Source: Naegleria gruberi
Taxonomy: Eukaryota
Assembly: GCA_000004985.1 (NCBI GenBank)
Contig: GG738908.1
DNA length: 64,000 nt
Strand: one strand, 5' to 3'
The position numbers and the translations under genes were made by a program. Below the pieces are notes generated by a model. The model was not told the origin of the DNA, did no database searches, and saw only the letters and a program-made list of their open reading frames with translations. This document shows, piece after piece, positions 20,473 to 63,300 of this stretch (its first letter is position 1; each line of letters begins with the position of its first letter).

Positions 20473-23400
20473 TTAAGCAGTATTTTGAGTTCTTTGATTT
20501 GTTTTCTTGTGGAATAAAACTGTTCCGTAGTGTTGATTACCCATTACAATATTGCCATGATCCATTGGTATTTCATCTTTTCCAGTAAGTGTGGGCACAA
20601 TACTAACCATGCTTGGTATTGTTCTGTGTTTATCACCCCAACCTTTCTTCAGCTTGGTACCTATGTAAAATAAGACAAATATTGCCACCAATATAATCAC
20701 CAAAACAACCACAACAGAAATAACTGCTCCTATGATAATGGAGGCAAATTGAGCGTTTGCATCCACAACAGAACAATCAGATCCCAAAAATCCTGATAAA
20801 CATTGACATACACCATCCAAACAAATTCCATTCAAACTGCAATGATTTGGACAGGTAACATTTGCACAGGAAGCTGGGTTGGATTCACATGCATCAGCAG
20901 CAACTGCATTAGCACTAGCCATTGCAAAGGAAGTGTCACCAGTTGAAATTACATCGAACAAACAAGTCTGATAGAAAGTTCCAGTTAAACCAAGATTTGT
21001 GCAAATCTTTTTAGCAAGTTCGTTCAAGGTTTGATTTTCGGATGTGGCAGAAATAGCTGGTTCAAAATCGACAATGTTAATTGAGTTGTACGTTTCATCT
21101 GCTGTATAAATGAAATAGGATTCGCTTTGTGGCACTCTCCAGCTCTCTCCAAATCGTTTATGAATATCTGTGGCAGATGGATCATTCAATACAAGACCAT
21201 TCCTCAAAGTAAATTCATTGGATGCATTACCATCTAGTGTTCCATATAAACCTCCCTTTTCAGTTCCTGTAAAGTTAGTGTCCTTTGCAGGTGAGAAGGA
21301 GACACTAAGCCACTTGATTCCATCATTTTTCAATCTGAGCTGGCCTGAAAAGATTCCAGAAAACTTGATTAAAATTACTTTGAATGGAATGGAAGTGTCG
21401 TTCACCTTGTAAGAATTCACTGGATCCTTCTCTTCAACAATAGTAGCACCTCCATTCAATACATAGACTGGTTGTGAAGGTGGTTTGTAAGCGAGAGCAG
21501 TTTGTTGAATTTGTGGAATTTCATTAGTATCAGGATCTCTTTGATATTTGATTTGATCATAAAAGTTTTGTAAATCTTTTGGTATTTCAAGTGTTGCATT
21601 ATTTTCCACTGCTTGAACATTAACAACAGTTTCCTTGAGGTCTACAACTTGTCCATTGACATATACTACCACATCATTCGTTCCATCTGAAGAAACTTCA
21701 ACTGTATCAGTTCCACTTTGGAATGAAATAGCTTTCATGCAAGAGGTCTTGGAGTCCTTAGTACATTTAAGCAATCTTCCTTGCATGGTAAATTCAGTTA
21801 GATTTGTACAAGTAAAACTCTCCCAATGAATTGAAAGAGTACAACAGACCATCCACAGTTCTCAAGTGGATATCCCCAAAGGCAAGTACTCTGTTGAAAA
21901 GTTCAAACTCTTCAATCTTGTTGCACTTTGCTCCTGCAAAACCTGGGAAGCAACTGCAGATATTTGGGCCAACACAGGTTCCGTGCTCTGAACACCAGTC
22001 TTTATGAGCACAATGGAATTTAGAACAGTCATCGCCCATCCAGCCCCATCTACAAACACAATCATTCAATCCAACACATTTTCCTCTCTTTGCTCCTCCA
22101 CAATTTGAATAATTTGCACACAGTGAGTTGTCAAAAGTAATACAATCCAACTCTGGTGGAACATATGTAGCATCTTGGACGAAGATTGTTGAATACGAGT
22201 CAACTTTCAAGTACACCATGTTTGATTTGCAATCATACGATGTTTCTCCATCAGTTCTATTGGATGGGGATAGAATATATTCCTTATTTGGGCTAACAAT
22301 GTTAATAGAGATAGGGCCCCATGCACTGAACTTGAATCCCAAACTTATACCATATTTTCCTAACCAAGATATTTCAATCTTCTCTGGGGTACCAACAACT
22401 CCTAGCCATTCAACAGTATAACTGTTTGTGATATTATCCAAATATAGAGCTCTGTACTGCCATTCTCCTCCAGTTGTTAATTCTCCCAACAAATTTTCAG
22501 TTTGAAGATTTGATGTAGAGTTAATTCTTGTTTGATCGACAGAGTTTGTAATAGCTGGTGAGACAAACTCCAACTTGGACCAATTTACAGTCTCGTCACA
22601 CATGTATGCATTCCATGCTGAAACGTAAAAGCACTTATCAAAATCTACCATAATATTGTTTGCTGGAATGACTCTAGAATTGACTCTATTGAATCCGGCA
22701 GGAACAGTAATGTTATAGGATAAGCAACCATCTAGATCGATAATAATAGAGTGTTTGTAATTATCGTGTAGACCATTACTCTTACCAACCAATAGATATA
22801 TGACGTTAGAGTTGTGGAACTTTAAATTCTTGACGAGGTAATCGCCTTGAACCATTCTTGCCATCTTATCATTCTTAATACTAATAGCATTTGCTTTTCT
22901 GTTGCAATTATCAACAAAATTGAAAAACTCAATTCCGTCCAAAGTCATTGGTTTTCCGTCTCTGTGAAATTCTACACCAACAATTGGTTGGGTTCTGTAA
23001 TTTGCATAGGATCTGTGATAGGTAGAATTTGGATTTTTGTAATTACCACAAGAATAACAACCATAAGCACAACTACCAGTATTTCCCTTATTTCCAGACT
23101 CTCCAATGAAAATGCAGTCTTTGGCTGTGAACTTGTCTTGGTTGATCACATTGAAAGTATAACCAATAGGATTATCTGCATAGATACTATCCTTCATGGC
23201 TATTTCTCCTTGCACATAGGCAAATTGTCCTTGTACCTTATTTCTATAAGAGACGAGTTTTGTAAATTCGGCTACGGCCCAAGGATTTTCGGCACTACCA
23301 CACCTAATCTTTTGGAAGATTTCTAATCTAGGATCGGTACAAACAAAGAAATCGTGCCATAAATTGAGACCATGCTGTCTATTACTATGAACTGTGTTGT

Positions 23401-25868
23401 TGTAAAATTTTCCCCAATACCATCTGCTGGGTTGGATGTAAGGAGACATACTTGGACCTAAACTGTAAGGTTCTAATTGATACCAAATTCCATGACCTTC
23501 ACTACCAGCAGCTCTATTGTTGATAAGAGTATTGTGAGGATTAGTCATCCAGAATGTTGCTGGGGAAGCATCATGATTGGTAGGACTTAGAATAGCTCTC
23601 GAGTCTGGGATGGCTTTTGTTACAAGTCCCAAACAATTCTCAATAATATTTCCCTCTTCAACTGCATCTTCCAAAAAGAAAGTATGTCCAAAAACATTGT
23701 AAGCAACAATACCCTCAGCGTGTAAGTTATTCACGCCGTGGAATGTAATTCCTCTCTGATAGGTGTCGTGGATTGATAACTTTTTAACATAGGAAGTTGA
23801 AGCATTGTTAAACAAGTGGAAGTGAACTGGATATCTGAAAAATGTGTAAATAAATTGAATTCAATTTTTGAATAACTTACCTTCCCAAAGTTCCTGCCTG
23901 ACCACATCTCCTAAATTCTGCATTATTCAATCTGATGTACTTGGCTGTTCTCATGTAAATAGTGTGACATCCGAACAAGCTGTTATCACTACTTTCATCT
24001 CCTTGCACCTTAATGTTGTGTGTCAATAAGGCGACTTCAGCTCTCTGGTCAAACTCTACAACCGTACCATCTGCTTTTGTGTAGTATTCAGTTTCAGCGT
24101 AGTGACCATAAACAAGTGGTGAGTGCAATTCAAAAGCTGTTCCACTAATTCTTCTGGTGATAAATCTTCTCTCGGCCTGATACAAGTCATAATCTGTCGA
24201 TGCAATCACAATCTCATCACCCACATCCCACAATGTCTCTTGAGCGAGGTAAATGATGTTATCTCCAACTTTTGATGATTGTTTCAATAAAGTCCAAGTT
24301 ACCTCATGTCTCTTTCCATGCAAACTCAAGACGCCTCCACTCATCACAGCAATATTCTTGTTACCAACACCCTTATCACTCAATGGTGTCTTCTCTCCAT
24401 ACAGAGTGATTGTTGCTTTGTGTTGATATGGTGTTGACTCGTTACCGATTTGGAGAGAACCAGTAACAACCATACTGTTCATTTGTAATTGAAGATCAAG
24501 AGTTTCATTTCCGTAATCATTATTATCAAATATGAGACATCCATAAACCATGACTGTATCCAATTTAGGTGGGCTGACATCTAGAATAATTGTCTTGTCA
24601 GATGGAATTGTCACAAATGAAGCAGATGCAAGAGTTTTACAGGTTGTGTTCTTATAACTTGTTTTACATATTGGATTGTTTTCAACATAGTAGGTTGTTG
24701 AACAATTTTCAGACATTGAATCATTGGAACAATAAACGAAAGAGAAGGAACATGAAGGCATTGTAAAACTTGTAGTATTAAGCCCATTTAGCCCCATCTC
24801 ACATAATGAACAATTTGTTCCACTATCTGTAAAATTGCAAATGTCAGTTAAATTCATAGCCACTCTTTCTGTACAATTTACCTCAGTGTCATTAAATGAA
24901 TCACAAATGGTAAGGGAATAGCTACTTTCGCATTCGACAATTTGCTGAGTTGAAGGACATTTTACAGTTTCATTTGATACGGTGCTATAATTCGAATAGG
25001 TAGAGTTCACTAATTCTGGGAAATATTCTGACCATTTCACAGTCTCTGAAGGACAATTATCACCAATTCCAGTTCCATAAGGATCTGTTGTGGTTTTGGT
25101 AAAAATTATTGCTTGTTTTCCAACTCCATAAGCATTATATCCTTTAAATTTGTTATAGGGAAGAACTCTGAAACTGTATGTTACATTCTGATCCAAATTA
25201 AATCTAGTGTATGTTTCAGCTTGGTGAGTCTTGTACATTACAGTTACATATCCCAAAGAATTGAGAGTTGACATTTGTATTTGATAGTAACAAATAACAT
25301 TTGTCGTATCATTTGATAATTTCCACCTCAGCTCAATACTAAAATAAGTTGGTATTGCCACAAAATTTTCAACAATTGAAATGTTGGCAGCTGTTGAAAA
25401 TCTATTAGTAATATTTCCATCAGATGGATCTGACAAATCCGAGAGTAAATACCTCCTTGGAGCTCCCTGTCCAATCGACCAATAACAACAAGGGTCTCCT
25501 AGTTCATCACCATTTGTTAGACCATCTCCATCTGAGTCCATCAAGCAAAATGTTTCATCCCAAACATACTTATTCTTTGCAAAGTCCTTTGCAAACTTGG
25601 TCATTGTCCCATTCTTGAAGAAGATATTAGTAAAGAGTTGTGAGTCAGGATAGATTGCACCATTTGGTAGTTTTGTGATATCAAAATCTGCATATAAACT
25701 CGATAAGGGTTTTGAATACGTCGAAGGCAATTGGCTCACCAATAGAAGAATATATACAATGATAGAAGAACAATACAAAAACCATGATATCTTATCATAT
25801 CGGCTTGTTCTTATTGAGGAGTAAGATGATGAATAGTCCGAGTAGGACCTCTGTTCTCTCCTCATCAT
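20473..25868 (-). CDS. Giant type-I membrane protein: G8/CEMIP-TMEM2-fibrocystin-like domain, right-handed beta-helix, tenascin-type EGF repeats, VWD domain, EGF, TM and a short cytoplasmic tail
   Basis: Exon 1 (25868..23881) starts MMRREQ with a signal anchor (ISWFLYCSSIIVYILLLVSQL) and ends ...GQAGTLG(R), where the codon is split at a GTAAGT donor. A 46-bp intron spans 23880..23835. Exon 2 begins (R)YPVHFHLFNNAST, the hallmark GRYP(V/I)HFH motif of G8-adjacent domains, then runs through beta-helix and EGF repeats (CVGLNDCVCRWGWMGDDCSKFHC..CSEHGTCVGPNICSCFPGFAGAKC) and the VWD start (AFGDIHLRTVDGLLYSFNSLGEFYLYKSN). The VWD continues in the -1/+1 frame ORF 21852..20473 (..MQGRLLKCTKDSKTSCMKAISFQSGTDTVEVSSDG..VVYVNGQVV), then EGF (CPNHCSLNGICLDGVCQC), a TM and the tail. 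There is a frame discontinuity near 21800-21850. Confidence 0.7.
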
Positions 25869-34340: not shown

Positions 34341-37070
34341 ATGGCAGGAGATTTTCGGAAGGCGTTTTATGCTGCGGAAAAAGGCAAAATTGATGAATTT
34401 AATAATTATTTTAATGAACAAGACGTTAATAAATCACAGAGAGGTGTTACCATGTTATATATTGCTTGCCAAAATGGACATTTAGAAATTGTTAAATTAT
34501 TATTATCATGTAAAACAATTGATGTTAATTTGAGTGTAAGTATTTTAATATTTAATTTAATTTTATATTTATAATATTAGACTGTAAGTATTTCAATGTT
34601 TAATATTTTTTATATTTAAAATATACATTAGACTGTAAGTATTTGATATTTAATATTATTTTATATTTTTAATATTAGTATGTAAGTATTTTAATATTTA
34701 ATATTTTTTATATTTTTAATATTAGTATGTAAGTATTTAATATTTAATATTATTTTATATTTATAATATTAGACCGTAAGTAATTAATATTTAATTTGAT
34801 ATTATTTATGTTTATAATATTAGTTTGTAAGTATTTAATTTTATTTATATTAATAATATTAGATGGTAAGTATTTTAATATTTAATATTATTTTATTTTT
34901 AATATTAGACACCATTATACATTGCGTGCCACTATGGACATTTAGAAATTGTTAAAGAATTACTTCAACATCCAAATATTGAAATAGATAGCGAATTGTC
35001 AGTGAATGGAATTAATATTCAAACAATTAAAAGTGACATGGAAAAGGAACAACAAATATTACAAGAACAAATAGAACAAAAAAAGTTGAAACAACTAGAA
35101 ATGGAAAGATTAGAAAGAAAAAGAATTACAAAATTAGAAATGGAAAGAATTGAAAAAGAACGTTTATTAAAAATAGAAAGAGAAAGAAAAGAATTTGAGA
35201 AAAAGCAACCATTCATAATCACATCTGAAACACTTTCAAAATTATGTTCACTCAACCAACAAGTAGATAATAATAGAAGAAAAGTTGAAAAACAATTTGA
35301 ATCAATTCAATCATTTTCTTCTTCTATTCAAATTGAGAAAGAATTTCAAGATGAATATTTAAGAATTTGTGATAATTTAAATAATTGTTGTAATTTAATT
35401 GAAAAATTAACAAGTAATAATTATAATATTGAAAATAATGAACATTTGTCAACTATTAATAATTTAATGAATAATATTAGAACTATATTGGAATTTATTA
35501 ATAATCAAAAATATTTATTTAAATTACAATCTTATTCAGAAGTATTAAATGAAAAATTAGAATTATTTAATGAATTTAATTCTCAATTTATTAAACAAGA
35601 ATTATTTGACAATATTGAAATGAGTGAACAATCTATTAAGAATATAAAAAGTATTAATATTGTTCCAACTCATAATAAATTTGGAAATGAAACTAAAACA
35701 ATATTACAACAAGTTACAAAACAATTATCAAATATTGTAAACTCTATCAATAATTGTAATGAAATTGATTTGACACAATTTTCAAATAATTTACAAAAAG
35801 CAATGGAATTATCAGAACAAGAAGAATTATATTTAAATAATATATTGTCAAATTGTAAAATATTAATTTCAGACAATGATCAAATGAATATTTTACAATT
35901 ATATAATTATTATCAAAAACAAGAATTAAATTGTAAATTATTAATTCAAGAAACAATTCCATATATAATTGAAAAATATGAAATGTTACAAAATATTATA
36001 AATATTATGAATAATTATTCAAATTTATCTGAACAATTTAAAACTATTCAAAGACAAAAAACAAGAATTNAAGAAATTTAATTGTGANNNNNNNNNNNNN
36101 NNNNNNNNNNNNNNNNNNNNNNNNNNNNNNNNNNNNNCATGAAAATTTGAAAATTGAAATTTTAAATCTAGAAAAGGAAAAGAAACAATTTTCAAATTCA
36201 AAGTCAAAGAAAAGTGAAGAAATTTCAAAGAAATTACAAAATTTGAAACAAAAAGAAATTGAAATTGAGAAGATGGAAAAGGAAATTAAAGAATCAAAAT
36301 CCAAACAATTAACAATTTCACTTCCAAGTTATTGGAAAAGAAACACATTCCAAACTTATTCGAAAAGATATTACATTATTGATGTTACACAATATTTAAA
36401 AGATACAATGCAAGAAATTATGAATGTATCGTGTAATTCTGCAACACTTGGATCTGGAAGAGATCAATTATTAAGAATTAATTATTCTAAATTAATTGTT
36501 TCAAGTGTTTCAAGAATTGAAAATTCAACACTTTTCACTTCATTCAAATCAAGAATGAATCATTTAATTTCATATCAAGATTCAATTAATTCACTTCAAG
36601 TTCAAACTGAAAATATTTCAAAAACATCAAAAACATTTGAATGGATGAAAACAATTGGATTAAATTCTAATATGAATGAAAAATATTTATGGCATGGAAC
36701 AAAACCTGAATTTGTGAATACAATTGCAGAACATGGATTTGATGAAAGAGTTGCAAATTTAAATGGATTATTTGGAGCAGGTATTTATTTTGCAGAATAT
36801 TGTTCAAAGAGTGATCAATATTGTACACCTGATCATTCAAATGAATATACTCTTTTATTATGTAGAGTTGTAATGGGAAGACAAATTCATTTCACAAAAC
36901 AAGTGATGAATAATCAGAGAAGACCACCTGAAATTTCAGGAAGTAATAATAGAGTTTATGATAGTGTTATTGGTCAATCAAATACTTCAACTAATTCATA
37001 TAGAGAATTCATTGTCTATGATAAATGTCAATGTTATCCTGAATTTATTATTAAATACAAGAGACAATAA
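34341..37070 (+). CDS. Ankyrin-repeat – coiled-coil – (kinase region missing or in gap) – PARP-catalytic-domain protein (copy B, inverted paralog of 10466..14954)
   Basis: Exon 1 (34341..34535): MAGDFRKAFYAAEKGKIDEFNNYFNEQDVN..TMLYIACQNGHLEIVKLLLSCKTIDVNLS, then GTAAGT. A 373-bp intron (34536..34908) is made of eight 47-bp intron-like units. Exon 2 from 34909: TPLYIACHYGHLEIVKELLQHPNIEID, then coiled coil that is near-identical to copy A. After ..TIQRQKTRI comes a 50-N gap (36088..36137), then HENLKIEILNLEKEKK.. and the PARP domain, which differs from copy A at only a few residues (e.g. SKTFEWMK against SKSFEWMK). Stop at 37070. About 80 bp of 3' flank are also shared with copy A. Confidence 0.8.
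34536..34908 (+). repeat. Tandem array of eight 46-47-bp intron-like units forming intron 1 of PARP-gene copy B
   Basis: Units read GTAAGTATTT(T/C/G)A(A/T)(T/G)TTTAATATT(A/T)TTTTATATTT(A/T)TAATATTAG, each followed by exactly 3 nt (ACT, ACT, TAT, TAT, ACC, TTT, ATG). The first exon-2 codon is ACA. Confidence 0.85.
36088..36137. other. Assembly gap (50 N) at the position where copy A carries its kinase domain
   Basis: Run of N characters. The adjacent base at 36070 is also N. Whether copy B lacks the roughly 1.5-kb kinase region cannot be decided from this sequence. Confidence 0.99.
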
Positions 37071-37705
37071 GGAATCAATCAAAGAATTATTAATTTCACT
37101 TCACTCCCTGATGTGAGAGAATTACATCTCAACACAAAATAAATATCAACAAATTTATAAAGTTATGGATCGTGAATTTGGTGAAAAGAATTAAGGAAGG
37201 CTGCAATTAGTTCTCTGATGGAGTAAAACTCTCCGTATGGAAGTACAACGCTTTGTTGTAATTTGACTTTAAATTTCTACTAATTAATTGCATTGTAAAA
37301 CTAATCGATCTCAAATAAATCCTACAAATAGGATGAATCAGATTCGAATTGAGGGTGTTGAAGACGTTCCTGATTACAGTTTCAGTGAAATTTCAATCAA
37401 AACATTTCGTTGCTGATTAGGAAATGCTTTTCTTAGTCATTTCGAATATTTCTTTACTAATGGCCAATGAAAGAAACACAACAGAAGTAGGAGAAACAAA
37501 GTACTACCCAAGAGGTGGTATCTTTAAGCCATCAACGTAATATCCGACTTTACCCGCTCTTGATGGGATGAAAGTAAGAAAAAATGTCGAAACGAAATGA
37601 GACGAAACTCTCGCTCATTCAACACAACAAATCATCAGACGAAACTTATCAAGTTCATATAAAATCATCATCAACGGAGAAAGGAAACATTTCAAGATTT
37701 TTCTT

Positions 37706-39703
37706 TTGGATTCGGAAGAAATTAATTCGAATAAGAAAATTTGGATTTCGTTTATAATAGTTTCGATTATGTTCGGAGGATTAGTTTTATTATTAATGAA
37801 TGATTCATTCATTACGAACGGATCAGATTTTATTCGAAAGGATTCGTTTGAAATTTCTACATCCAATCACGAACTGAAATTAATAGAAATTTATTCCAAT
37901 ACCACTTCTTCTACTGAAATACGAAACGATTCATCAATTTGTCATCCAATTTTATTAGAAATGGGAGCCGAAAGTTCTTTAGGTCTTTGTGATGATCAAG
38001 TTTCGTCCAAAACCATCGCAGCAATCTTTCTCTTTGCCCACACCATCCTCGTTATTGTCACTCTCTCTGGCCTTCTCTACAAATTATGGAAATTACGAAA
38101 CGACATTTCGAATAGAGAAGCCAACTTTCTAACCATTACCAGAAATCCACTTTTAATGACATTAGGCTCCTTAATTGGATGGAGCTATAGTCTTGTAATG
38201 ATGGGAAGAGTACTCATTGGACGAAAGGTTTATCCATGTTTCTTATTCATGTTTGTTTTCTATATGGCAGTTCCTGGATTGGCAAGTACGATCATTATCA
38301 GATGTTTGAGATTGATAATTTTATCGAGGATGAATGAATTGAAAGTCAAGATTGGGAATAGAGAGATGAAGAGTGTGCCGAATCAAGTGAATGATAAATT
38401 GGAAAGGAAATATTCGAATGTTGTTGTGGATGGTGGAGTGGTGGTTGAAAGTGAATTGAAAGTTGTGAGCTCTGTAACGAGTACGAGTACTCAGCAAGAT
38501 GCAATTAATTCTTCTCTTGACAATGTGTCAGAAAGTGAGAGTGCTTGCACAATTTCAGCAATTCCACCAAGTATAGAGCCACAATCAATGAATATTACAT
38601 TGGAAGATTCTGTGAGTGTAAATCAACCTGGATATTCGAAATGGGAATCATTTGAAAGAAGATGGCTCATGAAAATGTACAAATTTCTAATTAGTTCCAA
38701 ATTCATAGCCATCTGGTATGCATCCATTGCAATTATACATATTGGAATTTACATTATCATTGGAGCATTTGATTATTTCAATTTCGAGAATGGTGTTAAC
38801 AATTTTTCCATTGAAGAACGACGATCCATGTCATTTGTGTACGATACTCGAATTTTCTCAGTTGGAGGATGTGGAATTAGTTTCAATTCAGTTTTAATTT
38901 TTGTCATTTATTTGGCAGTTTATGGAATTGTGGCCATTGTCATGTCCATTTATAGTTTTCTGGTCAAGAAGGATATTTGGAAAGTTAAAACAGAGCTCAT
39001 CCTCATTACACTCAATTGGTTAATCTTTTCAATTCTGTACGGAGTTTTTTCAATCATTGAAGTGTTGAGCATTCTCGTTGATTATTTCTTTCCAACAGTT
39101 GCTTTTATTTTACTGGCATGTGTCATTGACACGTTTGTTTCATGCACCATTCCAGTATTTTTCTATCAACGTTCCAAGAACTCTAAAGTAGCCAACACTC
39201 GACAAGTTTCCACCTCCAACATGCTTTCTAAAATACTATTTGATAAGAAATGGAATGAGGAATTCTTAATCTTTTCAGAGAAGAGTTATTGTCCAGAAAA
39301 TTTAATGTGTTGGAATTCTATTGAGATTTTTAGAGAATCTTCTGAGAAATTGAGAAGGAAACATATAATTAGTATTCTGGAAACTTATTTATTGGAAGGA
39401 TCTCCTTTGGAACTCAATGTTCAACGTCAAATATTTAATAATTTTGAAAATATCACGTCAATTGTCAGATCAATCAAAGCTCAAGAAGCAGAATTGAAAC
39501 GCTTAGCAGAGGAGAATAATAAGGTTGTGGGAACAGCTGTGGTAGCTCTGCAACGTAGAAAGTCAATGAAAATCATTCAAATTCCAACAAATTTATTCGA
39601 TTCCATTCAGAAACATTGTGAAATTAATATGGCTGATTGTTTTGATAGATTTTATGTGCAACATTGGCAGAAATTATGCATGGAATTGGATGTAGAGGAG
39701 TGA
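37706..39703 (+). CDS. Seven-transmembrane receptor with a C-terminal RGS domain (7TM-RGS, AtRGS1/GprK-like), paralog 1, intronless as far as visible
   Basis: Signal/TM (IWISFIIVSIMFGGLVLLLM); a Cys-containing ectodomain (NDSSICHPILLEMGAESSLGLCDDQ); seven hydrophobic helices (IAAIFLFAHTILVIVTLSGLL ... FFPTVAFILLACVIDTFVSCTIPVFFY); then an RGS domain (EFLIFSEKSYCPENLMCWNSIEIFRESSEKLRRKHIISILETYLLEGSPLELNV). The true start is uncertain because the first in-frame codon in the track is TTG. Confidence 0.75.
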   Translation: MDSEEINSNKKIWISFIIVSIMFGGLVLLLMNDSFITNGSDFIRKDSFEISTSNHELKLIEIYSNTTSSTEIRNDSSICHPILLEMGAESSLGLCDDQVSSKTIAAIFLFAHTILVIVTLSGLLYKLWKLRNDISNREANFLTITRNPLLMTLGSLIGWSYSLVMMGRVLIGRKVYPCFLFMFVFYMAVPGLASTIIIRCLRLIILSRMNELKVKIGNREMKSVPNQVNDKLERKYSNVVVDGGVVVESELKVVSSVTSTSTQQDAINSSLDNVSESESACTISAIPPSIEPQSMNITLEDSVSVNQPGYSKWESFERRWLMKMYKFLISSKFIAIWYASIAIIHIGIYIIIGAFDYFNFENGVNNFSIEERRSMSFVYDTRIFSVGGCGISFNSVLIFVIYLAVYGIVAIVMSIYSFLVKKDIWKVKTELILITLNWLIFSILYGVFSIIEVLSILVDYFFPTVAFILLACVIDTFVSCTIPVFFYQRSKNSKVANTRQVSTSNMLSKILFDKKWNEEFLIFSEKSYCPENLMCWNSIEIFRESSEKLRRKHIISILETYLLEGSPLELNVQRQIFNNFENITSIVRSIKAQEAELKRLAEENNKVVGTAVVALQRRKSMKIIQIPTNLFDSIQKHCEINMADCFDRFYVQHWQKLCMELDVEE

Positions 39704-39870
39704 GGAGGAGAGGACTAGAGTTTGTTTTTATGAATTACCCCATTAAGATGACTTGTGGCCATAGCTGTCACTTGTCCATATTTGTAATTTATTAATATGC
39801 ACTTTGCGAAGACGAACGAAGAATAAGGTGGAAGATCTGATGCGCCAAGTCCGTCAAAATATTGAAAAAA

Positions 39871-41792
39871 ATGCCCAACTGCCATTCACTTGGCAGCTGC
39901 CACACGTCACTTGACATTCAAAAACCAAAAACAAGATTTTTCATCTCTCTATCTCTTCTCATCATGATGACGATGAATTTTCCAACAAACGCATCAATTT
40001 TGAATACAACCATCATCAACACTGAATTACGAAATGATTCGTCAGTTTGTCATCCAATTTTATTAGAAATGGGAGCCGAAAGTCAGTACGGATTATGTGA
40101 TGACCAAACACCTTCAAAAGCACTTGCTGGAATCTTTCTCGGATTGCACACAATTTTGGAAATAGTTTCGTTTATTGGACTTTCGTATAAATTATGGAAA
40201 GTAAAAAGGTCAACCAGCAATGAAGCCAATTTTCTGACCATTACCAGAAATCCACTTCTCATGATTTTGGGCTCATTGGTCGGATATATCTATAGCATTA
40301 TCATGATGGTTAGAATTTTAATTGGACGAAAGATTTTTCCATGTTTCTTATTCATGTTTTGTTTTTATATGGCAGTTCCAGGATTGGCAAGTACGATCAT
40401 TGTCAGATGTTTGAGAACTATTACATTATCGAGGATGAATGAATTGAAAATCAAGATTGGTAATCGAGAAATGAAAGATTTGAAAAATGTCGAGTTGAGT
40501 GTGATGAGTTCTGTACAGATTGATGCAGTTTCGTCTAGTACGGAAACTTCTGAGAGTAATGTTTCACAAACTAATGTTTCATTTTCGGTTGAAAGTAATG
40601 CTACTGGATCACATTCTGGAACTTTGGAAAGTGGAAATCAAATGGTCAACCAGCAAGTTACTTTGGAAGATTCTGTCAGTGTGAATCAACCAGGAATTAC
40701 CAAATGGGAGAATTTTGAAAAGAAGGTCTTGATGAAGGTTTACAAATTCCTGATCAGTACCAAATTTGTAGTATTGTGGTATTCAATGATTGCCATCGTT
40801 CACATTGGAATTTATATCATTATTGGCGCAGTTGACTATGTGAATTATGATAAGAATATTGCACTTTCGTATGCTGAAAAAAAGTCCTCGTCCTTTGTTT
40901 ACGATACCAGAATATTCACAACCAATGGATGTGGTATCAGTTTCAATAGTGTTCTCATTATTATTGCCTATTTGGTGTTTTATGGAAGTTTTGCAATTGT
41001 GATTATTGGATATAGTTTTTTAATTAAGAGAGATATTTGGAGAGTCAAGATTGAGTTGTATATTATTGTGATTTGTTGGATTTTATTGATTATTCTGTAT
41101 GCTGTCTTTTCAGTTATTGACATTTTGAGTACCTTGTAAGTAATATAGTAGTAGTAGTAGAATGATTAACATTTGACAGGGTTGATTATTATTTTCCAAC
41201 CTTTTTGTTTATTTTGATTGGCTGTATGATTGATACATTCATGAGCGTGACAGTTCCTGTCTTTTTCTATCAAAAGGCAACAATAGATAATAGATATTCT
41301 CAATCTTCTAGAACTAACATACTTGTCAAGTGTCTATTCAATAAGAAGTGGAATGATGAATTTTTACTCTTCTCTGAAAAGAGCTATTGTCCAGAAAATT
41401 TGATGTGTTGGAATGCCGTTGAGCAATTTAAGAGAGCTCCTGAAAAACTGAGAAGAAAACTCATTAAGGTCATTATGGAGACCTATCTTATCGAAGGTTC
41501 TCCACTCGAACTCAATATTCAACGAAATATGTTCAATAATTTTGAAGATATTTCAGCCATCACTGATTCTATTAAGAGACAAGAGAATGAAATGAAAAGA
41601 CTTGTCGCAGAGAATAATATCGTGGTTGGAACGATCAAAAAGAGAAGATCTATGAAAATGATTTCAATTCAACCAAATATTTTGGATAGAGTTCAGAAAC
41701 AATGTGAAGTGAACATGGTTGACTGTTTTGATAGATTTTATATTCAGTATTGGCAAGATATGTGTAAAGATTTGGAATCTGATGAGAATTAA
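39871..41792 (+). CDS. Seven-transmembrane receptor with a C-terminal RGS domain, paralog 2, two exons
   Basis: Proposed structure join(39871..41135, 41180..41792). ATG at 39871 (MPNCHSLGSC..) with the same ectodomain motif (NDSSVCHPILLEMGAESQYGLCDDQ). Exon 1 ends ..DILST(L) at a GTAAGT donor (41136). A 44-bp intron (gtaagtaatatagtagtagtagtagaatgattaacatttgacag) has no counterpart in paralog 1. Exon 2: VDYYFPTFLFILIGCMIDTF..FSEKSYCPENLMCWNAVEQFKRAPEKLRRK (RGS). Confidence 0.75.
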
Positions 41793-42097: not shown

Positions 42098-45000
42098 TTA
42101 CATATTTGTTTCATGATCATCTAGCCATTGATAATTGAGTTCCTTTTCCTGTTCCATAATTTGAATCATTTCGGTACTGCTGATTCTTCCATTCTCTCCA
42201 GCAGAAGATCTTCCACTTCTTCTGTACATTTCCAAATCAATTAAATAGCATTGCAATACTGTATCAATAACAGTTTGGAAAATTGTAATAAACAATGAGC
42301 TGACAAGTACACTCATAGCAAAAACAATAACCAGCAACATAAAGCTATGATTCACATCAAGCCATTCCTTTCCTGAAAAGACAATTTCAAACAAGCCATA
42401 ATTACCTTGTTCATTGTAGGCATTGGTTATCTTTCCAACAACACTTGTGAATTCCTCAAGTGATTTATCTTGGGCATGAATGATAATATAAGCCACAGCA
42501 ACACTAATAATGGCGACTAACATTTTCATACAAAACATGATCCAATCGGTAATCCATTCCAGAACTGCAATAAATGTAATATTCTTACGCATCAGCTTGG
42601 TAGAACTGAGTGAGGAGTGGAAGAATGTTGTACCAAAAATGGCACAGTGAATCAAACTGTTTCTAGCAAAGAATTCCATGAATTTTTCAATGTACTTGAG
42701 AATAACAAATAGAATTCTATGGATAAATCTTGTTAAGAAATTATTTCTAAAATTGTTAATAAATCTAACAATAAAGAATTGACTCTCAACTGCTTGTTCA
42801 ACAGTGCTCTTTTCACTTTGATATCCCATCAAGGAAAGGGATGTCTTGATAACCAGTATCAAATATTTCACAAGTCCAACAAATAAACTAGCAAGTGCAA
42901 TACTTCCTGCATTGTAGTACATGACAAATAATGAAGCTTGAAGAACTGGAAGCTTTAGACACATGAGCGTCTTTTCATAGCTGTCAAATATTGCAGAGCT
43001 TGATTCACCTCTTCTTGCTGCTGTTATAGTTCCAGAAACGTTTCCAAACTTGAAATAGAAGGTAGAGGTAACACGAGCAACAACAATAGTAACAAAACTC
43101 AACAAGAATTGAGTAATCCAGAAGAAACCAAGCAAGTAGTATGCAAACCATCCTTTCAAGAGATGGGACTGCAAAGTTAAAATAAAGCTTGTTGGATTGG
43201 AGAGTGATTGCATCTTTTCAGTAAGGGTATTACCTGTGGCAATATTACTTGTAACTTTTCCAGCCAAAGATGAAGCATCTGTAATTCCAGCGGCTGTCAG
43301 TTCATTGGTGAGCAAGAGGGCAACAACACAGAACCACCAAACACAGAAAATAATGCCTCCAATAAAGATTGCAATAGGCAGTACTGTAAACATTTGAGGC
43401 ACTGTCGTAATAATCATGGCACTCTCCTTAATGATAGAAACTGATCTGGATAATGTCTTTTTCCAATAATTCCAGAAAATAAATGTGAACAACAAATTTG
43501 TAAAGAGTAAGAATAAACCACTGCCCAAGTAGAGAGAATTTTCCCAAGTTAAATCAGCAATAGTGGAAGAGAATTTCTGGGACCATCTTGATGAGCCAGA
43601 TACATTGAAATGTAGATCAGATCCTCCTTCAACAAGTAACATGATGGACAAGGAGAACCATGCAAGAATGAGTAGGGCAACGGTACCATAAATCAAAGGC
43701 TTGGCCAATACCCTCAACAAGACAACTGTAATAAATGATACAGCAGCAGTAATTGTAACTGAGATGAGAATAATTTTCCAACTATTATACAACATGGTAA
43801 CACTCTTAATGATAAACTTTTCCAAGAAGGAAGGCATCAAACCAGATAATTCTTGAATATTAATTTCCTTTCCAATATTTGAAATGGTTGGTAAATTATC
43901 AATATAAGGACCAATAGTTGCACTGAAATATGAAGCAGGTGATATAGTAGTAATATGTCGTATCAAATTGGAGAGGGCTGACTTTTGTTGTTCAAACATT
44001 TCTTCAGTCATTTCGAAACCTGAAATTGTTTGAAGACTGGACTTGGTATTCAAATTGTTTTGCAATTTAGCCAAATTAGCTGCTTGTTCAAAGAATGCAA
44101 ATGAAGACGGTGTAGGAATGCAACGTCCCATCACTGAAAAGTAGGTTTGATCTTGAGGAACTTCGAAATAGACAGGTTCTGCTTTCTTTTCCTTGGAGAG
44201 GAAGAAACGTTTAGCAGCACACAAGTTCTTCTTTTTGATAATGACTTTGGTGACATTTTCTGTAATGGTTTCATTTCCTACAATCTTTTTAACTTGTTCG
44301 GTAATTTCAGTCTTATCGAACCAGGTTTTTCTCAAGGAGAGAGGGCATTCATCCGATACAAATGACAAACTTTCTGTTGATTGAGATGAGAATTCATCAC
44401 GAACATCAAGGTCCTTATTGTTCAAATTCTTTGAATTATCAATAGTCTTGACAGCACTTGGGCAACTCTCCACACAAATACCTCCATGTTTAATCCAAGT
44501 TTCAAATGGTACTGTTGATTTGGCAAGGTCATACTTTTCCTTTCCAAAGAATGCATCCTTTTCATTCATAATCCACAAATATTTACGTGATGAAAGATCT
44601 TCCTTCCAATAGTTTTTATCAACCATAGAATCAGCAAATTGAAGTGCTCTATTTTGAATAGATAAACTATCGAGAGATCCATCATCTTTAGAATAATCAA
44701 CACCACAAGCTCTTCCCAAATAATCAATCGGATAGAAGAAACGTGTCATTTCCCTCTTTGATGGAATAAAGTAATTAAAGAATGAAATATTGTCGTCTAA
44801 TGATGATGGATTGTTGTTGTTACTATTTACAGAGGAAGTAAGAAGGTCGGCAACACTGGCTTTTAAAAGATTCATCTCTGCCCCTTGATTATGTTCCTTC
44901 AATTGTGCTGAAATGTACTCTCTTCTCTTTACTATAGCCTCCAAAGCAATAGCAATCATACCAATACAGAAGAGGATAAACACAATAAGGAAGAGAATAT

Positions 45001-45370
45001 CTCTACATGGACGATTTTGATGGAATTCATAAGTGTACTTTTTAACGAGGAGACTATTACTCTTTCTATTGTTATTACCAAGAAGTGATTCTTCATCAGA
45101 GTCTGAATCAAAGTCTAGTGATGGTTTAGGAATGGTAGCAGAAGGTCTTCCGCCATTGTTATTATTATGAGATGATGTGTTATTGTTATTATTTGCAGAG
45201 TTTGTAGTTTTGTTAGTTGTATGATTGTTATTAGTTGAAGTTTGTTGTTGTTGGTTTGTTTGATTAATCTTTGTATTGACCAATTCAACTTCCCTCGATA
45301 GATATTCTAACAACTCTTCTGGAGAAGGAGTTGGATATAAATTGTTATTATTATTGCCTTGTTGACTCAT
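42098..45370 (-). CDS. Choline-transporter-like (CTL/SLC44/Pns1 family) membrane protein with a long poly-Asn/Gln N-terminal extension
   Basis: 1090-aa single ORF. N-terminus MSQQGNNNNNLYP..QQQTSTNNNHTTNKTTNSANNNNN. A first TM (ILFLIVFILFCIGMIAIAL), a large extracellular loop, then a multi-TM core with CTL-conserved blocks (WFAYYLLGFFWITQFLLSFVTIVVARVTSTFYF; RNSLIHCAIFGTTFFHSSLSSTKLMRKN). Confidence 0.7.
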   Translation of the reverse strand: MSQQGNNNNNLYPTPSPEELLEYLSREVELVNTKINQTNQQQQTSTNNNHTTNKTTNSANNNNNTSSHNNNNGGRPSATIPKPSLDFDSDSDEESLLGNNNRKSNSLLVKKYTYEFHQNRPCRDILFLIVFILFCIGMIAIALEAIVKRREYISAQLKEHNQGAEMNLLKASVADLLTSSVNSNNNNPSSLDDNISFFNYFIPSKREMTRFFYPIDYLGRACGVDYSKDDGSLDSLSIQNRALQFADSMVDKNYWKEDLSSRKYLWIMNEKDAFFGKEKYDLAKSTVPFETWIKHGGICVESCPSAVKTIDNSKNLNNKDLDVRDEFSSQSTESLSFVSDECPLSLRKTWFDKTEITEQVKKIVGNETITENVTKVIIKKKNLCAAKRFFLSKEKKAEPVYFEVPQDQTYFSVMGRCIPTPSSFAFFEQAANLAKLQNNLNTKSSLQTISGFEMTEEMFEQQKSALSNLIRHITTISPASYFSATIGPYIDNLPTISNIGKEINIQELSGLMPSFLEKFIIKSVTMLYNSWKIILISVTITAAVSFITVVLLRVLAKPLIYGTVALLILAWFSLSIMLLVEGGSDLHFNVSGSSRWSQKFSSTIADLTWENSLYLGSGLFLLFTNLLFTFIFWNYWKKTLSRSVSIIKESAMIITTVPQMFTVLPIAIFIGGIIFCVWWFCVVALLLTNELTAAGITDASSLAGKVTSNIATGNTLTEKMQSLSNPTSFILTLQSHLLKGWFAYYLLGFFWITQFLLSFVTIVVARVTSTFYFKFGNVSGTITAARRGESSSAIFDSYEKTLMCLKLPVLQASLFVMYYNAGSIALASLFVGLVKYLILVIKTSLSLMGYQSEKSTVEQAVESQFFIVRFINNFRNNFLTRFIHRILFVILKYIEKFMEFFARNSLIHCAIFGTTFFHSSLSSTKLMRKNITFIAVLEWITDWIMFCMKMLVAIISVAVAYIIIHAQDKSLEEFTSVVGKITNAYNEQGNYGLFEIVFSGKEWLDVNHSFMLLVIVFAMSVLVSSLFITIFQTVIDTVLQCYLIDLEMYRRSGRSSAGENGRISSTEMIQIMEQEKELNYQWLDDHETNM

Positions 45371-60352: not shown

Positions 60353-63300
60353 ATGTCATCACCACAACATGCAACCCTGCTTCTCGCCTTTTTNNNNNNN
60401 NNNNNNNNNNNNNNNNNNNNNNNNNNNNNNNNNNNNNNNNNNNNNNNNNNNNNNNNNNNNNNNNNNNNNNNNNNNNNNNNNNNNNNNNNNNNNNNNNNNN
60501 NNNNNNNNNNNNNNNNNNNNNNNNNNNNNNNNNNNNNNNNNNNNNNNNNNNNNNNNNNNNNNNNNNNNNNNNNNNNNNNNNNNNNNNNNNNNNNNNNNNN
60601 NNNNNNNNNNNNNNNNNNNNNNNNNNNNNNNNNNNNNNNNNNNNNNNNNNNNNNNNNNNNNNNNNNNNNNNNNNNNNNNNNNNNNNNNNNNNNNNNNNNN
60701 NNNNNNNNNNNNNNNNNNNNNNNNNNNNNNNNNNNNNNNNNNNNNNNNNNNNNNNNNNNNNNNNNNNNNNNNNNNNNNNNNNNNNNNNNNNNNNNNNNNN
60801 NNNNNNNNNNNNNNNNNNNNNNNNNNNNNNNNNNNNNNNNNNNNNNNNNNNNNNNNNNNNNNNNNNNNNNNNNNNNNNNNNNNNNNNNNNNNNNNNNNNN
60901 NNNNNNNNNNNNNNNNNNNNNNNNNNNNNNNNNNNNNNNNNNNNNNNNNNNNNNNNNNNNNNNNNNNNNNNNNNNNNNNNNNNNNNNNNNNNNNNNNNNN
61001 NNNNNNNNNNNNNNNNNNNNNNNNNNNNNNNNNNNNNNNNNNNNNNNNNNNNNNNNNNNNNNNNNNNNNNNNNNNNNNNNNNNNNNNNNNNNNNNNNNNN
61101 NNNNNNNNNNNNNNNNNNNNNNNNNNNNNNNNNNTATTGATGGTATCAATTCTTTCACAATTACTGGCTCTACATTTGCAAACAATTCCAAATTACACAT
61201 GACAACTGTTTTCAGCTCTACCTTGAGAGGTTTGACTTTTGAGGGAAATGAAAATGTTCTTTCTGCGAAAGGAATTGGTTCTTTTACATTGGAGCATTCA
61301 AATTTTACTCGCAATGGTAATCCAATTTATATTTCAGGAAATCAATTGACAAATCAATTTAGAAAAATTAGTTTTTGTTTATTTGAGGACAATTGGTCAA
61401 CCAGCAATGGTCTTATAACATTGGAACAGTTTCCCACACATGTGGAATTTAACAATTTCAGAAATAATTGGGCAGTGAATGGAGGAATAATTTATGCAAC
61501 TAGTTCCATAATTACTTTGGATAAAAATCAGTTTGTGGATACTTATGCAAGATTCATTGAAGGTTGTTTAGTTGATAATTGTGGAAATGGAGGAATTGCC
61601 TATATTTCTAATACTATTTTGTACATGTCCAATCTCATTATTCAAAATACTCAAGCAATTAGAGGAGGAATTGTTTATTCTGAGGGAAATTCTCGAATTC
61701 AAACCCAAAATTGTGATATTTCAGATAATATTGCTTCTTTGGCTGGTAATTTATTTTACTTTGGAGATGTTATTGATTTTAATGCCCAAAATTATTCGAA
61801 ATCTGACCTGAGTTCGAGGAAAACAACTCGAGCACTTTGGAGAACGGAATCTAGTCAACCTTACGATAATCAACGAATTGCCATCCAACCCGGGCAAACA
61901 ATACAATTGGATTTTGAGTATTTTGACATGTTTGACAACAGATTCAATAGAACAAATTCTGCTCCAATTATTAAGGCAAGTGATTCATCCAACATTCTTG
62001 TATCCCTCGTTTCAATTGATCCACTTTCCAATACTGACTTTAAATTCTTCTTGCAAGTGTCAGAAACTTCAAAAAGCTCAAATATTTCAGTATATCTCCC
62101 ATTCCATGACTTTACATTTGAGATTGATATTGATATTATTGGATGCCCTTTTGATTATGGTTTATCACCACTTTTAAATTCACACTACAACGTGTGTGTC
62201 TATAGAGGTTATATTATAATTGTATTCTCCTCTATTGGCATTGCAATCATTCTACTGGTTGCAATTTATTTATTGATCTATGTTGTTAAGAGATTACTCA
62301 AATTGAGAAAGAAGGAAATGACTGAAAAGGAAATTGCACAAAAGATTATTGATAAGAATTTTGTTTTTTCTATCAATACTGATAATGAGCACACTCCATT
62401 ATTATCAAAACTGGAAGTTGCCAAGATTAGTAATATCTTAATTCCAATTGAGGATATTGAAATCATCAAAAGAATTGGAGAAGGAGCTAATGGTACTGTA
62501 TACTTAGCTAAATGGCAAGGAAATCGTGTAGCTCTAAAAAGTTTAAAATTCGAAAGGGATAGCACTGACTTTGAAAATGAAGCATCTCTCCTTAATAATT
62601 TGAGACATCCTTCTATTGTGAGATTTTATGGAATTGTAGTGTCTTCTTCAGTTAAATACATGGTTACAGAGTTTGTGGAAAATGGAAGTTTGGATGCAGC
62701 CATTCATAATTCCAAAATTGGAAAGAAGAAACTTGATTTACAAACAAAATTACAAATTTTGAGAGGAATTGCAAATGGAATGAACTATCTTCATAATTTG
62801 AAAACTCCATGTCTTCACAGAGATTTGAAATGTCAAAATATTCTTCTCAATTCCAACATGGAACCAAAGGTTACAGATTTTGGATTGTCAAAATTGACTT
62901 TAAATTCAATGACATTGACTTGCAATATTGGAACAGCTCTTTACATGGTAAGTTTTCAAATTTAAGAGAGTTAAACCGAGTCAATCATTGTAAAGTCTCC
63001 TGAATTATTTGGAAGTGGTTACAAAATTTCATACAAATTGGACGTTTACAGTTTCTCCATCATCATGTACGAATTATTCTTTGAGGAAACTCCATTCTTT
63101 AGCTCATCAGCCAAGATGAGAAAATTTATCATTTCATCCACTGAACAATCACCAGAAGATGATCATGATACAATGAATTTTGGTTTTGCAATTCCAGTAA
63201 AAGTTTCGAAAGGAGAACGGCCAATGCTTCCCTGGACTAATGATGAGGAATGTGAAATGTGGATTAAGGAATTTATAGAACCCTATGAAGGAGGAGGAGG

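What the first reader, a model, noticed from the sequence alone, without database searches (positions are those of the whole stretch)
37706..41792. Tandem 7TM-RGS receptor pair with intron presence/absence difference, located about 20 kb from a G-alpha gene
Both genes encode a seven-helix receptor fused to an RGS (GTPase-accelerating) domain. This architecture is known from plant AtRGS1 and some fungal or protist receptors, and it implies self-contained regulation of G-alpha. The paralogs share the ectodomain motif NDSS(I/V)CHPILLEMGAES..GLCDDQ. Paralog 2 has a 44-bp intron between TM6 and TM7 (41136..41179) at a site where paralog 1 is uninterrupted. That marks a recent intron gain or loss. 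A G-alpha subunit with an atypical C-terminus lies nearby (15561..17062).
Basis: partly seen in the sequence, partly recalled or inferred. Interest (0 to 1): 0.5.

Follow-up and report, generated by a model that had tools for sequence, protein, structure and literature searches.

The report
Tandem Naegleria 7TM-RGS receptor genes
Two neighbouring Naegleria gruberi genes each encode a seven-helix membrane receptor fused to a G-protein "off-switch" (RGS) domain; both belong to a large, already published Naegleria family, and the intron difference is an old intron loss in the first copy, so the finding is real but ordinary.

Summary
The window is Naegleria gruberi. Two head-to-tail genes on the + strand, 167 bp apart, encode 62%-identical proteins. 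Each has a short Cys-motif ectodomain, a GPCR-fold seven-helix domain and a C-terminal RGS domain that scores above Pfam's cut-off. Paralog 2 carries a 44-bp GT..AG, phase-2 intron at 41136..41179. Retaining it gives immediate stops.

The interpretation needs three corrections.
- 7TM-RGS proteins are a known, expanded Naegleria family. N. fowleri has 28, and three isolated RGS domains were shown to be Gα GAPs (PMC9283941).
- The intron is ancestral. It sits at the same codon and phase in six mapped homologous genes from N. lovaniensis and environmental relatives. Paralog 1 therefore lost it precisely. The duplication is old (dS about 1.3).
- The Gα gene about 20 kb away is canonical, separated by several unrelated genes, and its proximity is about what chance predicts in a genome with about 44 Gα genes.

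The RGS residues that contact Gα are retained. The Glu and the Asn of the α5-α6 loop are invariant across 50 family representatives, so GAP function is likely.

Minor points: paralog 2 is absent from a 5.8-billion-protein database and appears unannotated. A third N. gruberi paralog's model stops at this intron site.

The parts
37769..39703 (+). Paralog 1 coding sequence (644 aa, intronless), as in the public N. gruberi model. The frame is open upstream to 37601 without an ATG.
   Evidence: (100% identical to P0001).
37925..37999 (+). Paralog 1 ectodomain motif NDSSICHPILLEMGAESSLGLCDDQ. It contains the family-conserved Cys58 and Cys74, just before TM1.
   Evidence: C58, H59, P60, C74 and D76 nearly invariant.
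37997..39193 (+). Paralog 1 seven-helix GPCR-fold domain (residues 77-475). It has a roughly 85-residue disordered Ser/Thr-rich loop between TM3 and TM4 (residues 204-287).
39203..39688 (+). Paralog 1 RGS domain (residues about 479-640). A variable insert separates the N-terminal two-thirds from the last helices. Contact residues are E510, N511, N550, D623 and R627.
   Evidence: (RGS9/RGS1 structural matches, TM about 0.6).
39871..41135 (+). Paralog 2 exon 1: signal-peptide-like N-terminus, ectodomain motif (40033..40107) and TM1-TM6.
41136..41179 (+). Paralog 2 intron: 44 bp, GTAAGT...GACAG, phase 2 inside a Leu codon, in the TM6-TM7 turn.
   Evidence: The same site and phase occur in six mapped homologous genes.
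41180..41792 (+). Paralog 2 exon 2: TM7 plus the RGS domain (about 41301..41777). The stop codon is at 41790..41792.
   Evidence: (PF00615, 36.8 bits).
15561..17062 (-). It is a canonical Gα, and no link to the receptor pair was shown.

Best explanation
These are two members of the heterolobosean (Naegleria/Willaertia) 7TM-RGS receptor family. They arose by an old tandem duplication.

Each protein has four parts:
- a short glycosylatable ectodomain with a conserved CHPxLL...GLCDD motif;
- a divergent seven-helix domain with a GPCR fold;
- a long disordered cytoplasmic TM3-TM4 loop;
- a cytoplasmic C-terminal RGS domain.

The most likely mechanism follows N. fowleri 7TM RGS2-4 and plant AtRGS1. 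The membrane-anchored RGS domain binds the transition state of one or more Naegleria Gα subunits and accelerates GTP hydrolysis. An extracellular cue sensed by the 7TM/ectodomain would modulate that GAP activity or its location.

Shown here: the architecture, the fold, family membership, conservation of the Gα-contact residues, and purifying selection. Inferred: GAP activity, the ligand, the partner Gα and the membrane topology.

The 44-bp intron of paralog 2 is an ancestral family intron. Paralog 1 lost it by a precise deletion, most simply through recombination with a reverse-transcribed mRNA.
For: Organism and identity: P0001 is 100% identical and is N. gruberi.

RGS domain:
- Pfam RGS scores above the curated cut-off in both paralogs.
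- A profile of the family's RGS region hits RGS10 at E 1e-7, and also RGS17, RGS16, RGS2 and RGS7.
- In those alignments p1 E510/N511 fall on the 'SEEN' motif and N550 on the 'xVNV/INL' Asn. D623 and R627 fall on 'DSYSRF', but only in a weak, non-significant second stretch.
- E510 and N550 are invariant, and D623 and R627 at least 90% conserved, in 50 diverse family representatives. All 50 match PF00615.

Family size: 108 cluster representatives at E<1e-30. All eight named ones, among the ten looked up, are N. gruberi, N. lovaniensis or Willaertia magna.

Selection: dN/dS is 0.25 overall and 0.19 for the TM7+RGS part.

Function of relatives: isolated RGS domains of Nf 7TM RGS2-4 accelerate GTP hydrolysis on Nf Gα2, 3, 5 and 7 (PMC9283941).

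Intron:
- The same site and phase occur in Nlov P0004 (129 bp), Nlov gene A, P0005 (58 bp), P0006 (129 bp), env L003 (47 bp) and env L002 (55 bp).
- In the NJ tree p1 and p2 are sisters with 100% bootstrap, inside intron-bearing relatives.
Against: - No transcript data were available, so splicing and expression of either gene are unconfirmed.
- The Pfam RGS match covers only profile positions about 2-79 of 117. The last helices lie after a variable insert and were aligned only weakly (second stretch not significant). The Foldseek RGS matches have E>0.1.
- The model's overall pLDDT is 62.5 and it was built from only 10 sequences.
- The N. fowleri proteins that were tested biochemically carry large EGF/lectin/GPS ectodomains. 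They are not close relatives of this short-ectodomain subfamily, so their GAP activity is an extrapolation.
- Deep nodes of the NJ tree are unsupported (bootstrap 0-22%). The environmental sister L001 also lacks the intron, so either two independent losses occurred or gene conversion between the tandem copies has blurred the tree.
Confidence: 0.8

Rival explanations
1. Paralog 2 is a decaying pseudogene. On this view the 44-bp segment is an insertion that disrupts the frame, not an intron.
For: No protein matching paralog 2 exists in the 5.8-billion-protein database, although paralog 1 and a third paralog do. No transcript evidence is available.
Against: - The boundaries are canonical GTAAGT...AG, and removal restores the frame exactly.
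- Six mapped homologous genes carry an intron at the same codon and phase.
- Both exons are open, and all conserved family residues and RGS contact residues are present.
- dN/dS is 0.19 in the part downstream of the intron.
Confidence: 0.04
2. The intron was gained in paralog 2 after the duplication, rather than lost in paralog 1.
For: The two closest sequences, paralog 1 and environmental L001/P0002, both lack it. So does the most distant member examined, N. fowleri P0010. On the p1/p2/L001 clade alone, a single gain is as parsimonious as two losses.
Against: A gain would have had to hit exactly the same nucleotide position and phase as the intron in N. lovaniensis P0004, gene A, P0005 and P0006 and in environmental L002 and L003. 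Parallel insertion at an identical site is far less likely than loss.
Confidence: 0.06
3. The RGS domains do not act as GAP switches modulated by a ligand. Either they are scaffolds, or the 7TM domain is a conventional GEF-type GPCR with the RGS as a built-in terminator.
For: Some RGS domains have lost GAP activity and act as scaffolds (PMC3971589). The 7TM has a true GPCR fold. Naegleria has both slow-exchanging and self-activating Gα subunits (PMC9283941), so GEF-type receptors are plausible there.
Against: The residues equivalent to RGS4 E87, N128, D163 and R167 are invariant or nearly so across the family, which is the pattern expected for catalytically engaged RGS domains. Related Naegleria 7TM-RGS domains are GAPs in vitro.
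Confidence: 0.12
4. The receptor pair and the Gα gene at 15561..17062 form a functional, co-inherited signalling module.
For: The Gα gene is real and looks catalytically competent: P-loop GAGESGKST, switch I RVKTVG with the Gly that RGS sensitivity requires, DVGGQR and NKND. It lies about 20.6 kb from paralog 1.
Against: - ORFs of at least 200 aa for about seven unrelated proteins lie between them, including EGF/G8/beta-helix proteins and a PARP-domain gene.
- The Gα gene is on the opposite strand.
- With about 44 Gα genes in a genome of about 41 Mb (my recollection of Fritz-Laylin 2010), my arithmetic gives about a 5% chance of a Gα within +/-22 kb of any one locus. With dozens of 7TM-RGS loci, one or more such cases are expected by chance.
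- No conserved synteny was found, because the N. lovaniensis and N. fowleri relatives are not orthologs of this pair.
Confidence: 0.05

Closest known systems
Naegleria fowleri 7TM RGS proteins (28 genes; Nf 7TM RGS1-4 studied by Bosch, Jeck & Siderovski 2022, PMC9283941)
   Same: Same genus and same architecture, with seven TM helices followed by a C-terminal RGS domain. N. fowleri homologs of this very subfamily exist (P0008 and P0010). The RGS contact residues are conserved.
   Different: The proteins tested biochemically have large ectodomains with EGF repeats, lectin domains and GPS motifs. The window genes have only a roughly 75-residue ectodomain with a CHPxLL..GLCDD motif. No member of this subfamily has been assayed.
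Arabidopsis AtRGS1
   Same: A 7TM domain fused to a C-terminal RGS box. AtRGS1 is a GAP for a self-activating Gα and is regulated by an extracellular cue (glucose) and by endocytosis, as summarised in PMC9283941 and PMC8584482. It is the working model for how these proteins act.
   Different: Homology between the two 7TM domains was not tested here. The Naegleria 7TM gave no sequence match to any Pfam 7TM family or to any solved GPCR. The fusion may therefore be independent. The Naegleria proteins also have a long disordered TM3-TM4 loop.
Human GPR158/GPR179-RGS7-Gβ5 complex (class C orphan receptors that recruit an RGS protein)
   Different: In GPR158 the RGS is a separate polypeptide recruited non-covalently, whereas here it is fused. 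Sequence identity is 7-9%. Pfam 7tm_3 does not match p1 or p2, and matched only one of 50 family representatives.

Membership tests
7TM-RGS receptor architecture (AtRGS1 / Naegleria 7TM RGS class) | N-terminal domain of seven transmembrane helices with a GPCR-like fold | tested here: met
7TM-RGS receptor architecture (AtRGS1 / Naegleria 7TM RGS class) | C-terminal RGS domain detectable by profile above the curated threshold | tested here: met
   PF00615 scores 27.7 bits (p1) and 36.8 bits (p2) against a cut-off of 23.9. The family RGS profile hits RGS10 at E 1e-7. All 50 of 50 family representatives match PF00615.
7TM-RGS receptor architecture (AtRGS1 / Naegleria 7TM RGS class) | Retention of the Gα switch-contact residues (RGS4 E87, N88, N128, D163, R167) | tested here: met
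   p1 has E510, N511, N550, D623 and R627. p2 has the same residues in the motifs CPEN, LELN and DCFDRF. E510 and N550 are invariant, and D623 and R627 at least 90% conserved, in 50 representatives. The N88 position is Asp in several other family members. The mapping of D623 and R627 rests on a weak alignment stretch.
7TM-RGS receptor architecture (AtRGS1 / Naegleria 7TM RGS class) | Topology with the N-terminus outside and the RGS domain in the cytoplasm | tested here: inconclusive
   The evidence is consistent with this topology but is not direct. There is an odd number of TM helices. p2 has a signal-peptide-like N-terminus. N-x-S/T sequons and conserved Cys lie in the N-terminal segment, and conserved Cys157 (start of TM3) and Cys368 (TM4-TM5 loop) sit where GPCRs have their extracellular disulfide. 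No topology predictor or experiment was available.
7TM-RGS receptor architecture (AtRGS1 / Naegleria 7TM RGS class) | GTPase-accelerating activity on a cognate Gα | not testable with these tools
   This has been shown only for N. fowleri 7TM RGS2-4 (PMC9283941).
7TM-RGS receptor architecture (AtRGS1 / Naegleria 7TM RGS class) | Common descent of the 7TM domain with that of AtRGS1 | not tested
Class C GPCR 7TM (Pfam 7tm_3) | Sequence-profile match to 7tm_3 or to solved class C receptors | tested here: not met
Spliceosomal intron | GT..AG boundaries, frame restoration, and a position conserved in homologs | tested here: met
   Confirmation by transcripts is not possible with these tools.

The most novel reading that the evidence does not exclude
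The short-ectodomain CHPxLL..GLCDD subfamily could be a distinct, heterolobosean-specific class of small-ligand sensors. On this reading its 7TM domain descends from class C-like GPCRs and was fused to RGS independently of plants. The tandem pair would have diverged in ligand or Gα specificity, possibly serving the neighbouring Gα. That would make it a tractable minimal model for how a 7TM domain controls a fused GAP.
Probability: 0.1. Interest if true: 0.45.

Novelty: new member of a known kind. Interest (0 to 1): 0.15.

Why it matters
The finding matters little beyond curation.

It confirms that N. gruberi shares the expanded 7TM-RGS repertoire already described for N. fowleri. That repertoire bears on the 'self-activating Gα plus receptor-GAP' mode of G-protein signalling in non-opisthokont eukaryotes.

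Practical value:
- Paralog 2 appears to lack a gene model.
- At least one other N. gruberi family member (P0003) has a model that stops at the conserved intron site.
- The conserved phase-2 intron is a handy marker for repairing such models.
- The pair gives a clean, datable example of precise intron loss in a tandem duplicate in an intron-poor excavate.

Tried and rejected
- Fold search against afdb50, to compare with AtRGS1: the library was not available.
- Foldseek against PDB with the whole model: GPCRs and RGS domains were listed, but nothing reached E<=0.001.
- A 7TM-only family profile against PDB sequences: only spurious low-complexity matches to MotB and ATP synthase b. No sequence-level link to any solved GPCR.
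- Exact look-ups of the N. gruberi proteins P0001 and P0003, to obtain their scaffolds and gene tables: not on record. I therefore could not read the annotation around paralog 2, nor recover the missing second exon of P0003.
- Search for an upstream exon of paralog 1: the only frame-compatible options use ATG 37584 and a weak GTTCAT donor at 37653, with acceptors at 37696 or 37735. This is unresolved.
- The N. lovaniensis tandem pair as an ortholog of this pair: rejected. The two N. lovaniensis genes are each other's closest relatives (98% bootstrap) in a different clade, so they come from an independent duplication.
- The 'atypical C-terminus' of the Gα: rejected. It aligns end-to-end with Gαi1.
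Full report
**Source and gene structure**

The best database hit of the first ORF is a 644-aa 'predicted protein [Naegleria gruberi]' at 100% identity (P0001), so the window is N. gruberi. The ORF tool's start at TTG 37706 is mechanical. The public model starts at ATG 37769 and ends at 39703.

The second gene starts at ATG 39871, which is 167 bp after the first gene's stop. Its frame closes at 41137-41139. A second ORF in another frame runs to 41792.

The segment 41136..41179 reads GTAAGTAATATAGTAGTAGTAGTAGAATGATTAACATTTGACAG. It is 44 bp, has GT..AG ends, and interrupts a Leu codon after its second base. Removing it joins ..AVFSVIDILSTL to VDYYFPTFLF... This aligns residue for residue with ..GVFSIIEVLSILVDYFFPTVAF.. 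in paralog 1. Reading through gives 'STL*VI*****'.

The spliced product has 625 aa. BLASTP against paralog 1 gives 694 bits and 59% identity. A global alignment gives 62% identity over 593 aligned codons.

**Domain content**

RGS domain:
- Pfam RGS (PF00615) scores above the gathering cut-off in both proteins: 27.7 and 36.8 bits against 23.9.
- The match covers only the first two-thirds of the profile. A variable, partly disordered insert of about 35 to more than 100 residues across the family separates it from the last helices.
- A profile of the family's RGS region finds RGS10 (E 1e-7) and also RGS17, RGS16, RGS2, RGS6/7 and GAIP among PDB sequences.
- In those alignments, p1 ..SYCPENLMCW.. 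lies on ..EFSEENVLFW.. and ..PLELNV.. on ..SSQVNV... In a weak second stretch..MADCFDRF.. lies on ..KYDSYSRF...
- By my knowledge of the RGS4-Gαi1 structure (Tesmer et al. 1997), these are the equivalents of E87, N88, N128, D163 and R167.
- Across 50 diverse cluster representatives, E510 and N550 (p1 numbering) are invariant, and D623 and R627 are at least 90% conserved. All 50 match PF00615.

7TM domain:
- An AlphaFold2 model of paralog 1 was built from a 10-sequence alignment. Mean pLDDT is 62.5, pTM is 0.60, and the helices score 70-89.
- It shows helices at 77-111, 127-150, 157-201, 310-341, 372-398, 404-437 and 441-475, with a disordered Ser/Thr-rich loop at 204-287. A helical C-terminal domain follows.
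- Foldseek lists RGS9, RGS1 and SNX25 RGS domains for the C-terminal part (target TM about 0.6), but at non-significant E-values.

The '7TM + RGS' reading is therefore supported by independent sequence and structure evidence.

**The family**

An exhaustive profile search found 1526 cluster representatives at E<=0.001 and 108 at E<1e-30. Many span the whole 7TM-RGS profile. Ten were looked up. The eight that carry names are from N. gruberi, N. lovaniensis or Willaertia magna, and the other two are unnamed metagenome proteins.

The literature already describes this:
- Bosch, Jeck and Siderovski (2022) counted 28 7TM-RGS genes, 79 other RGS proteins and 13 Gα genes in N. fowleri. They showed that the isolated RGS domains of three 7TM-RGS proteins accelerate GTP hydrolysis on Nf Gα2, 3, 5 and 7, some of which are self-activating (PMC9283941).
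- de Mendoza et al. (2014) reported 7TM-RGS architectures in many bikonts and in some opisthokonts (PMC3971589).

The kind is therefore known. What distinguishes this subfamily is its short ectodomain with the CHPxLL...GLCDD motif. The N. fowleri proteins that were assayed have EGF/lectin/GPS ectodomains.

**Intron history**

I recovered genomic DNA for several homologs and mapped their introns.

An intron in phase 2, inside the Leu codon of ..L|VDY(Y/F).P.., is present in:
- N. lovaniensis P0004 (129 bp);
- its upstream tandem neighbour;
- N. lovaniensis P0005 (58 bp);
- N. lovaniensis P0006 (129 bp);
- two environmental contigs (L003, 47 bp; L002, 55 bp).

The third N. gruberi paralog, P0003, has a public model that stops at ..IITT, exactly at this site. 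This suggests a model truncated at the same intron. In the representative search, at least eight proteins end at profile position 415-416 and four start at 415-418, as gene callers would produce at an intron.

The intron is absent from paralog 1, from the environmental sister P0002/L001 (an uninterrupted 651-codon ORF) and from the distant N. fowleri P0010.

In a neighbour-joining tree, p1 and p2 are sisters (100% bootstrap) and L001 is their sister (100%). Deeper nodes are unresolved.

The simplest reading is an ancestral intron lost precisely in paralog 1, and independently in L001. Alternatively it was lost once, with later gene conversion between the tandem copies. A gain in paralog 2 would need insertion at an identical nucleotide and phase.

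The event is not recent in any absolute sense:
- dS between the paralogs is about 1.3;
- 4-fold sites are 49% identical against 30% expected from composition;
- dN/dS is 0.25 overall and 0.19 downstream of the intron.

Both copies have therefore been kept under purifying selection.

**The Gα gene**

The gene at 15561..17062 is on the minus strand and has four exons. The three larger exons match PF00503 strongly and the short first exon only weakly (17.1 bits).

Spliced, it has [33 protein letters not shown] and TCATD. Its length is therefore canonical. It lacks Gly2 (MPCF..) and the Gi-specific Cys at position -4. The position equivalent to Gαi1 Thr182 is Val.

ORFs of at least 200 aa for about seven unrelated proteins lie between it and the receptor pair. 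N. gruberi is reported to have about 44 Gα genes (PMC8584482). With a genome of about 41 Mb (my recollection), my arithmetic gives about a 5% chance that a Gα lies within +/-22 kb of any one locus. With dozens of 7TM-RGS loci, that amounts to an expected one or more such cases. I found no evidence of a functional link.

**Verdict**

The genes are ordinary members of a published family. Small new points:
- Paralog 2 is absent from a 5.8-billion-protein collection, in both searches, and seems unannotated.
- The P0003 model ends at the intron site and looks truncated there.
- The annotated start of paralog 1 cuts a hydrophobic signal-like segment.

Interest is low.

Noticed in passing
window 37584..37769: The annotated start of paralog 1 (ATG 37769, MFGGLVLLLM..) cuts into a 20-residue hydrophobic, signal-like segment (KKIWISFIIVSIMFGGLVLLLM). 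That segment is open in frame back to 37601 but has no ATG. The only frame-compatible upstream exon uses ATG 37584 with a weak GTTCAT donor at 37653 and an AG at 37696 (44 bp) or 37735 (83 bp). The true 5' end is unresolved.
   Followed up: partly
P0003 (N. gruberi, other scaffold): The public model of a third N. gruberi paralog (428 aa) ends at ..SLFTIITT, exactly at the conserved intron site, and lacks TM7 and the RGS domain. It is probably a truncated gene model. Its DNA could not be fetched.
   Followed up: partly
L004 814..5277 (N. lovaniensis PYSW02000015.1): N. lovaniensis also has a head-to-tail tandem pair of family members, 175 bp apart. The two are each other's closest relatives (98% bootstrap), so this is an independent tandem duplication. 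Both carry a second, phase-1 intron after ..GCGT|G.. that the N. gruberi pair lacks.
   Followed up: yes
one search hit table (profile positions about 484-493 and about 339-346): Many environmental family fragments end near profile position 484-493 or start near 339-346. This suggests further conserved intron positions (or domain boundaries) in other subfamilies.
   Followed up: no
window 20473..25868 (-): Three adjacent minus-strand ORFs carry G8, Temptin_C, fn3, CEMIP beta-helix, teneurin-type EGF, VWD and RGM_C domains. They are probably exons of one large secreted or adhesion-type protein.
   Followed up: no
window 11843..12355, 36088..36137, 60394..61134: These are runs of N (assembly gaps). 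The second lies inside the PARP-catalytic-domain gene just upstream of paralog 1 (36138..37070, PF00644). The gaps contribute to the low-GC bins in the composition profile.
   Followed up: yes
window 15561..17062 (-): The Gα has Val where Gαi1 has Thr182, the switch I residue that inserts into the RGS4 pocket (from memory of the Tesmer 1997 structure). It begins MPCF.., so it has no Gly2 for myristoylation. Whether this affects RGS coupling or membrane anchoring is unknown.
   Followed up: no
window 42098..45370 (-): The gene immediately downstream encodes a 1090-aa choline-transporter-like (PF04515) membrane protein with an Asn-rich N-terminus. It is unrelated to the receptor pair.
   Followed up: no
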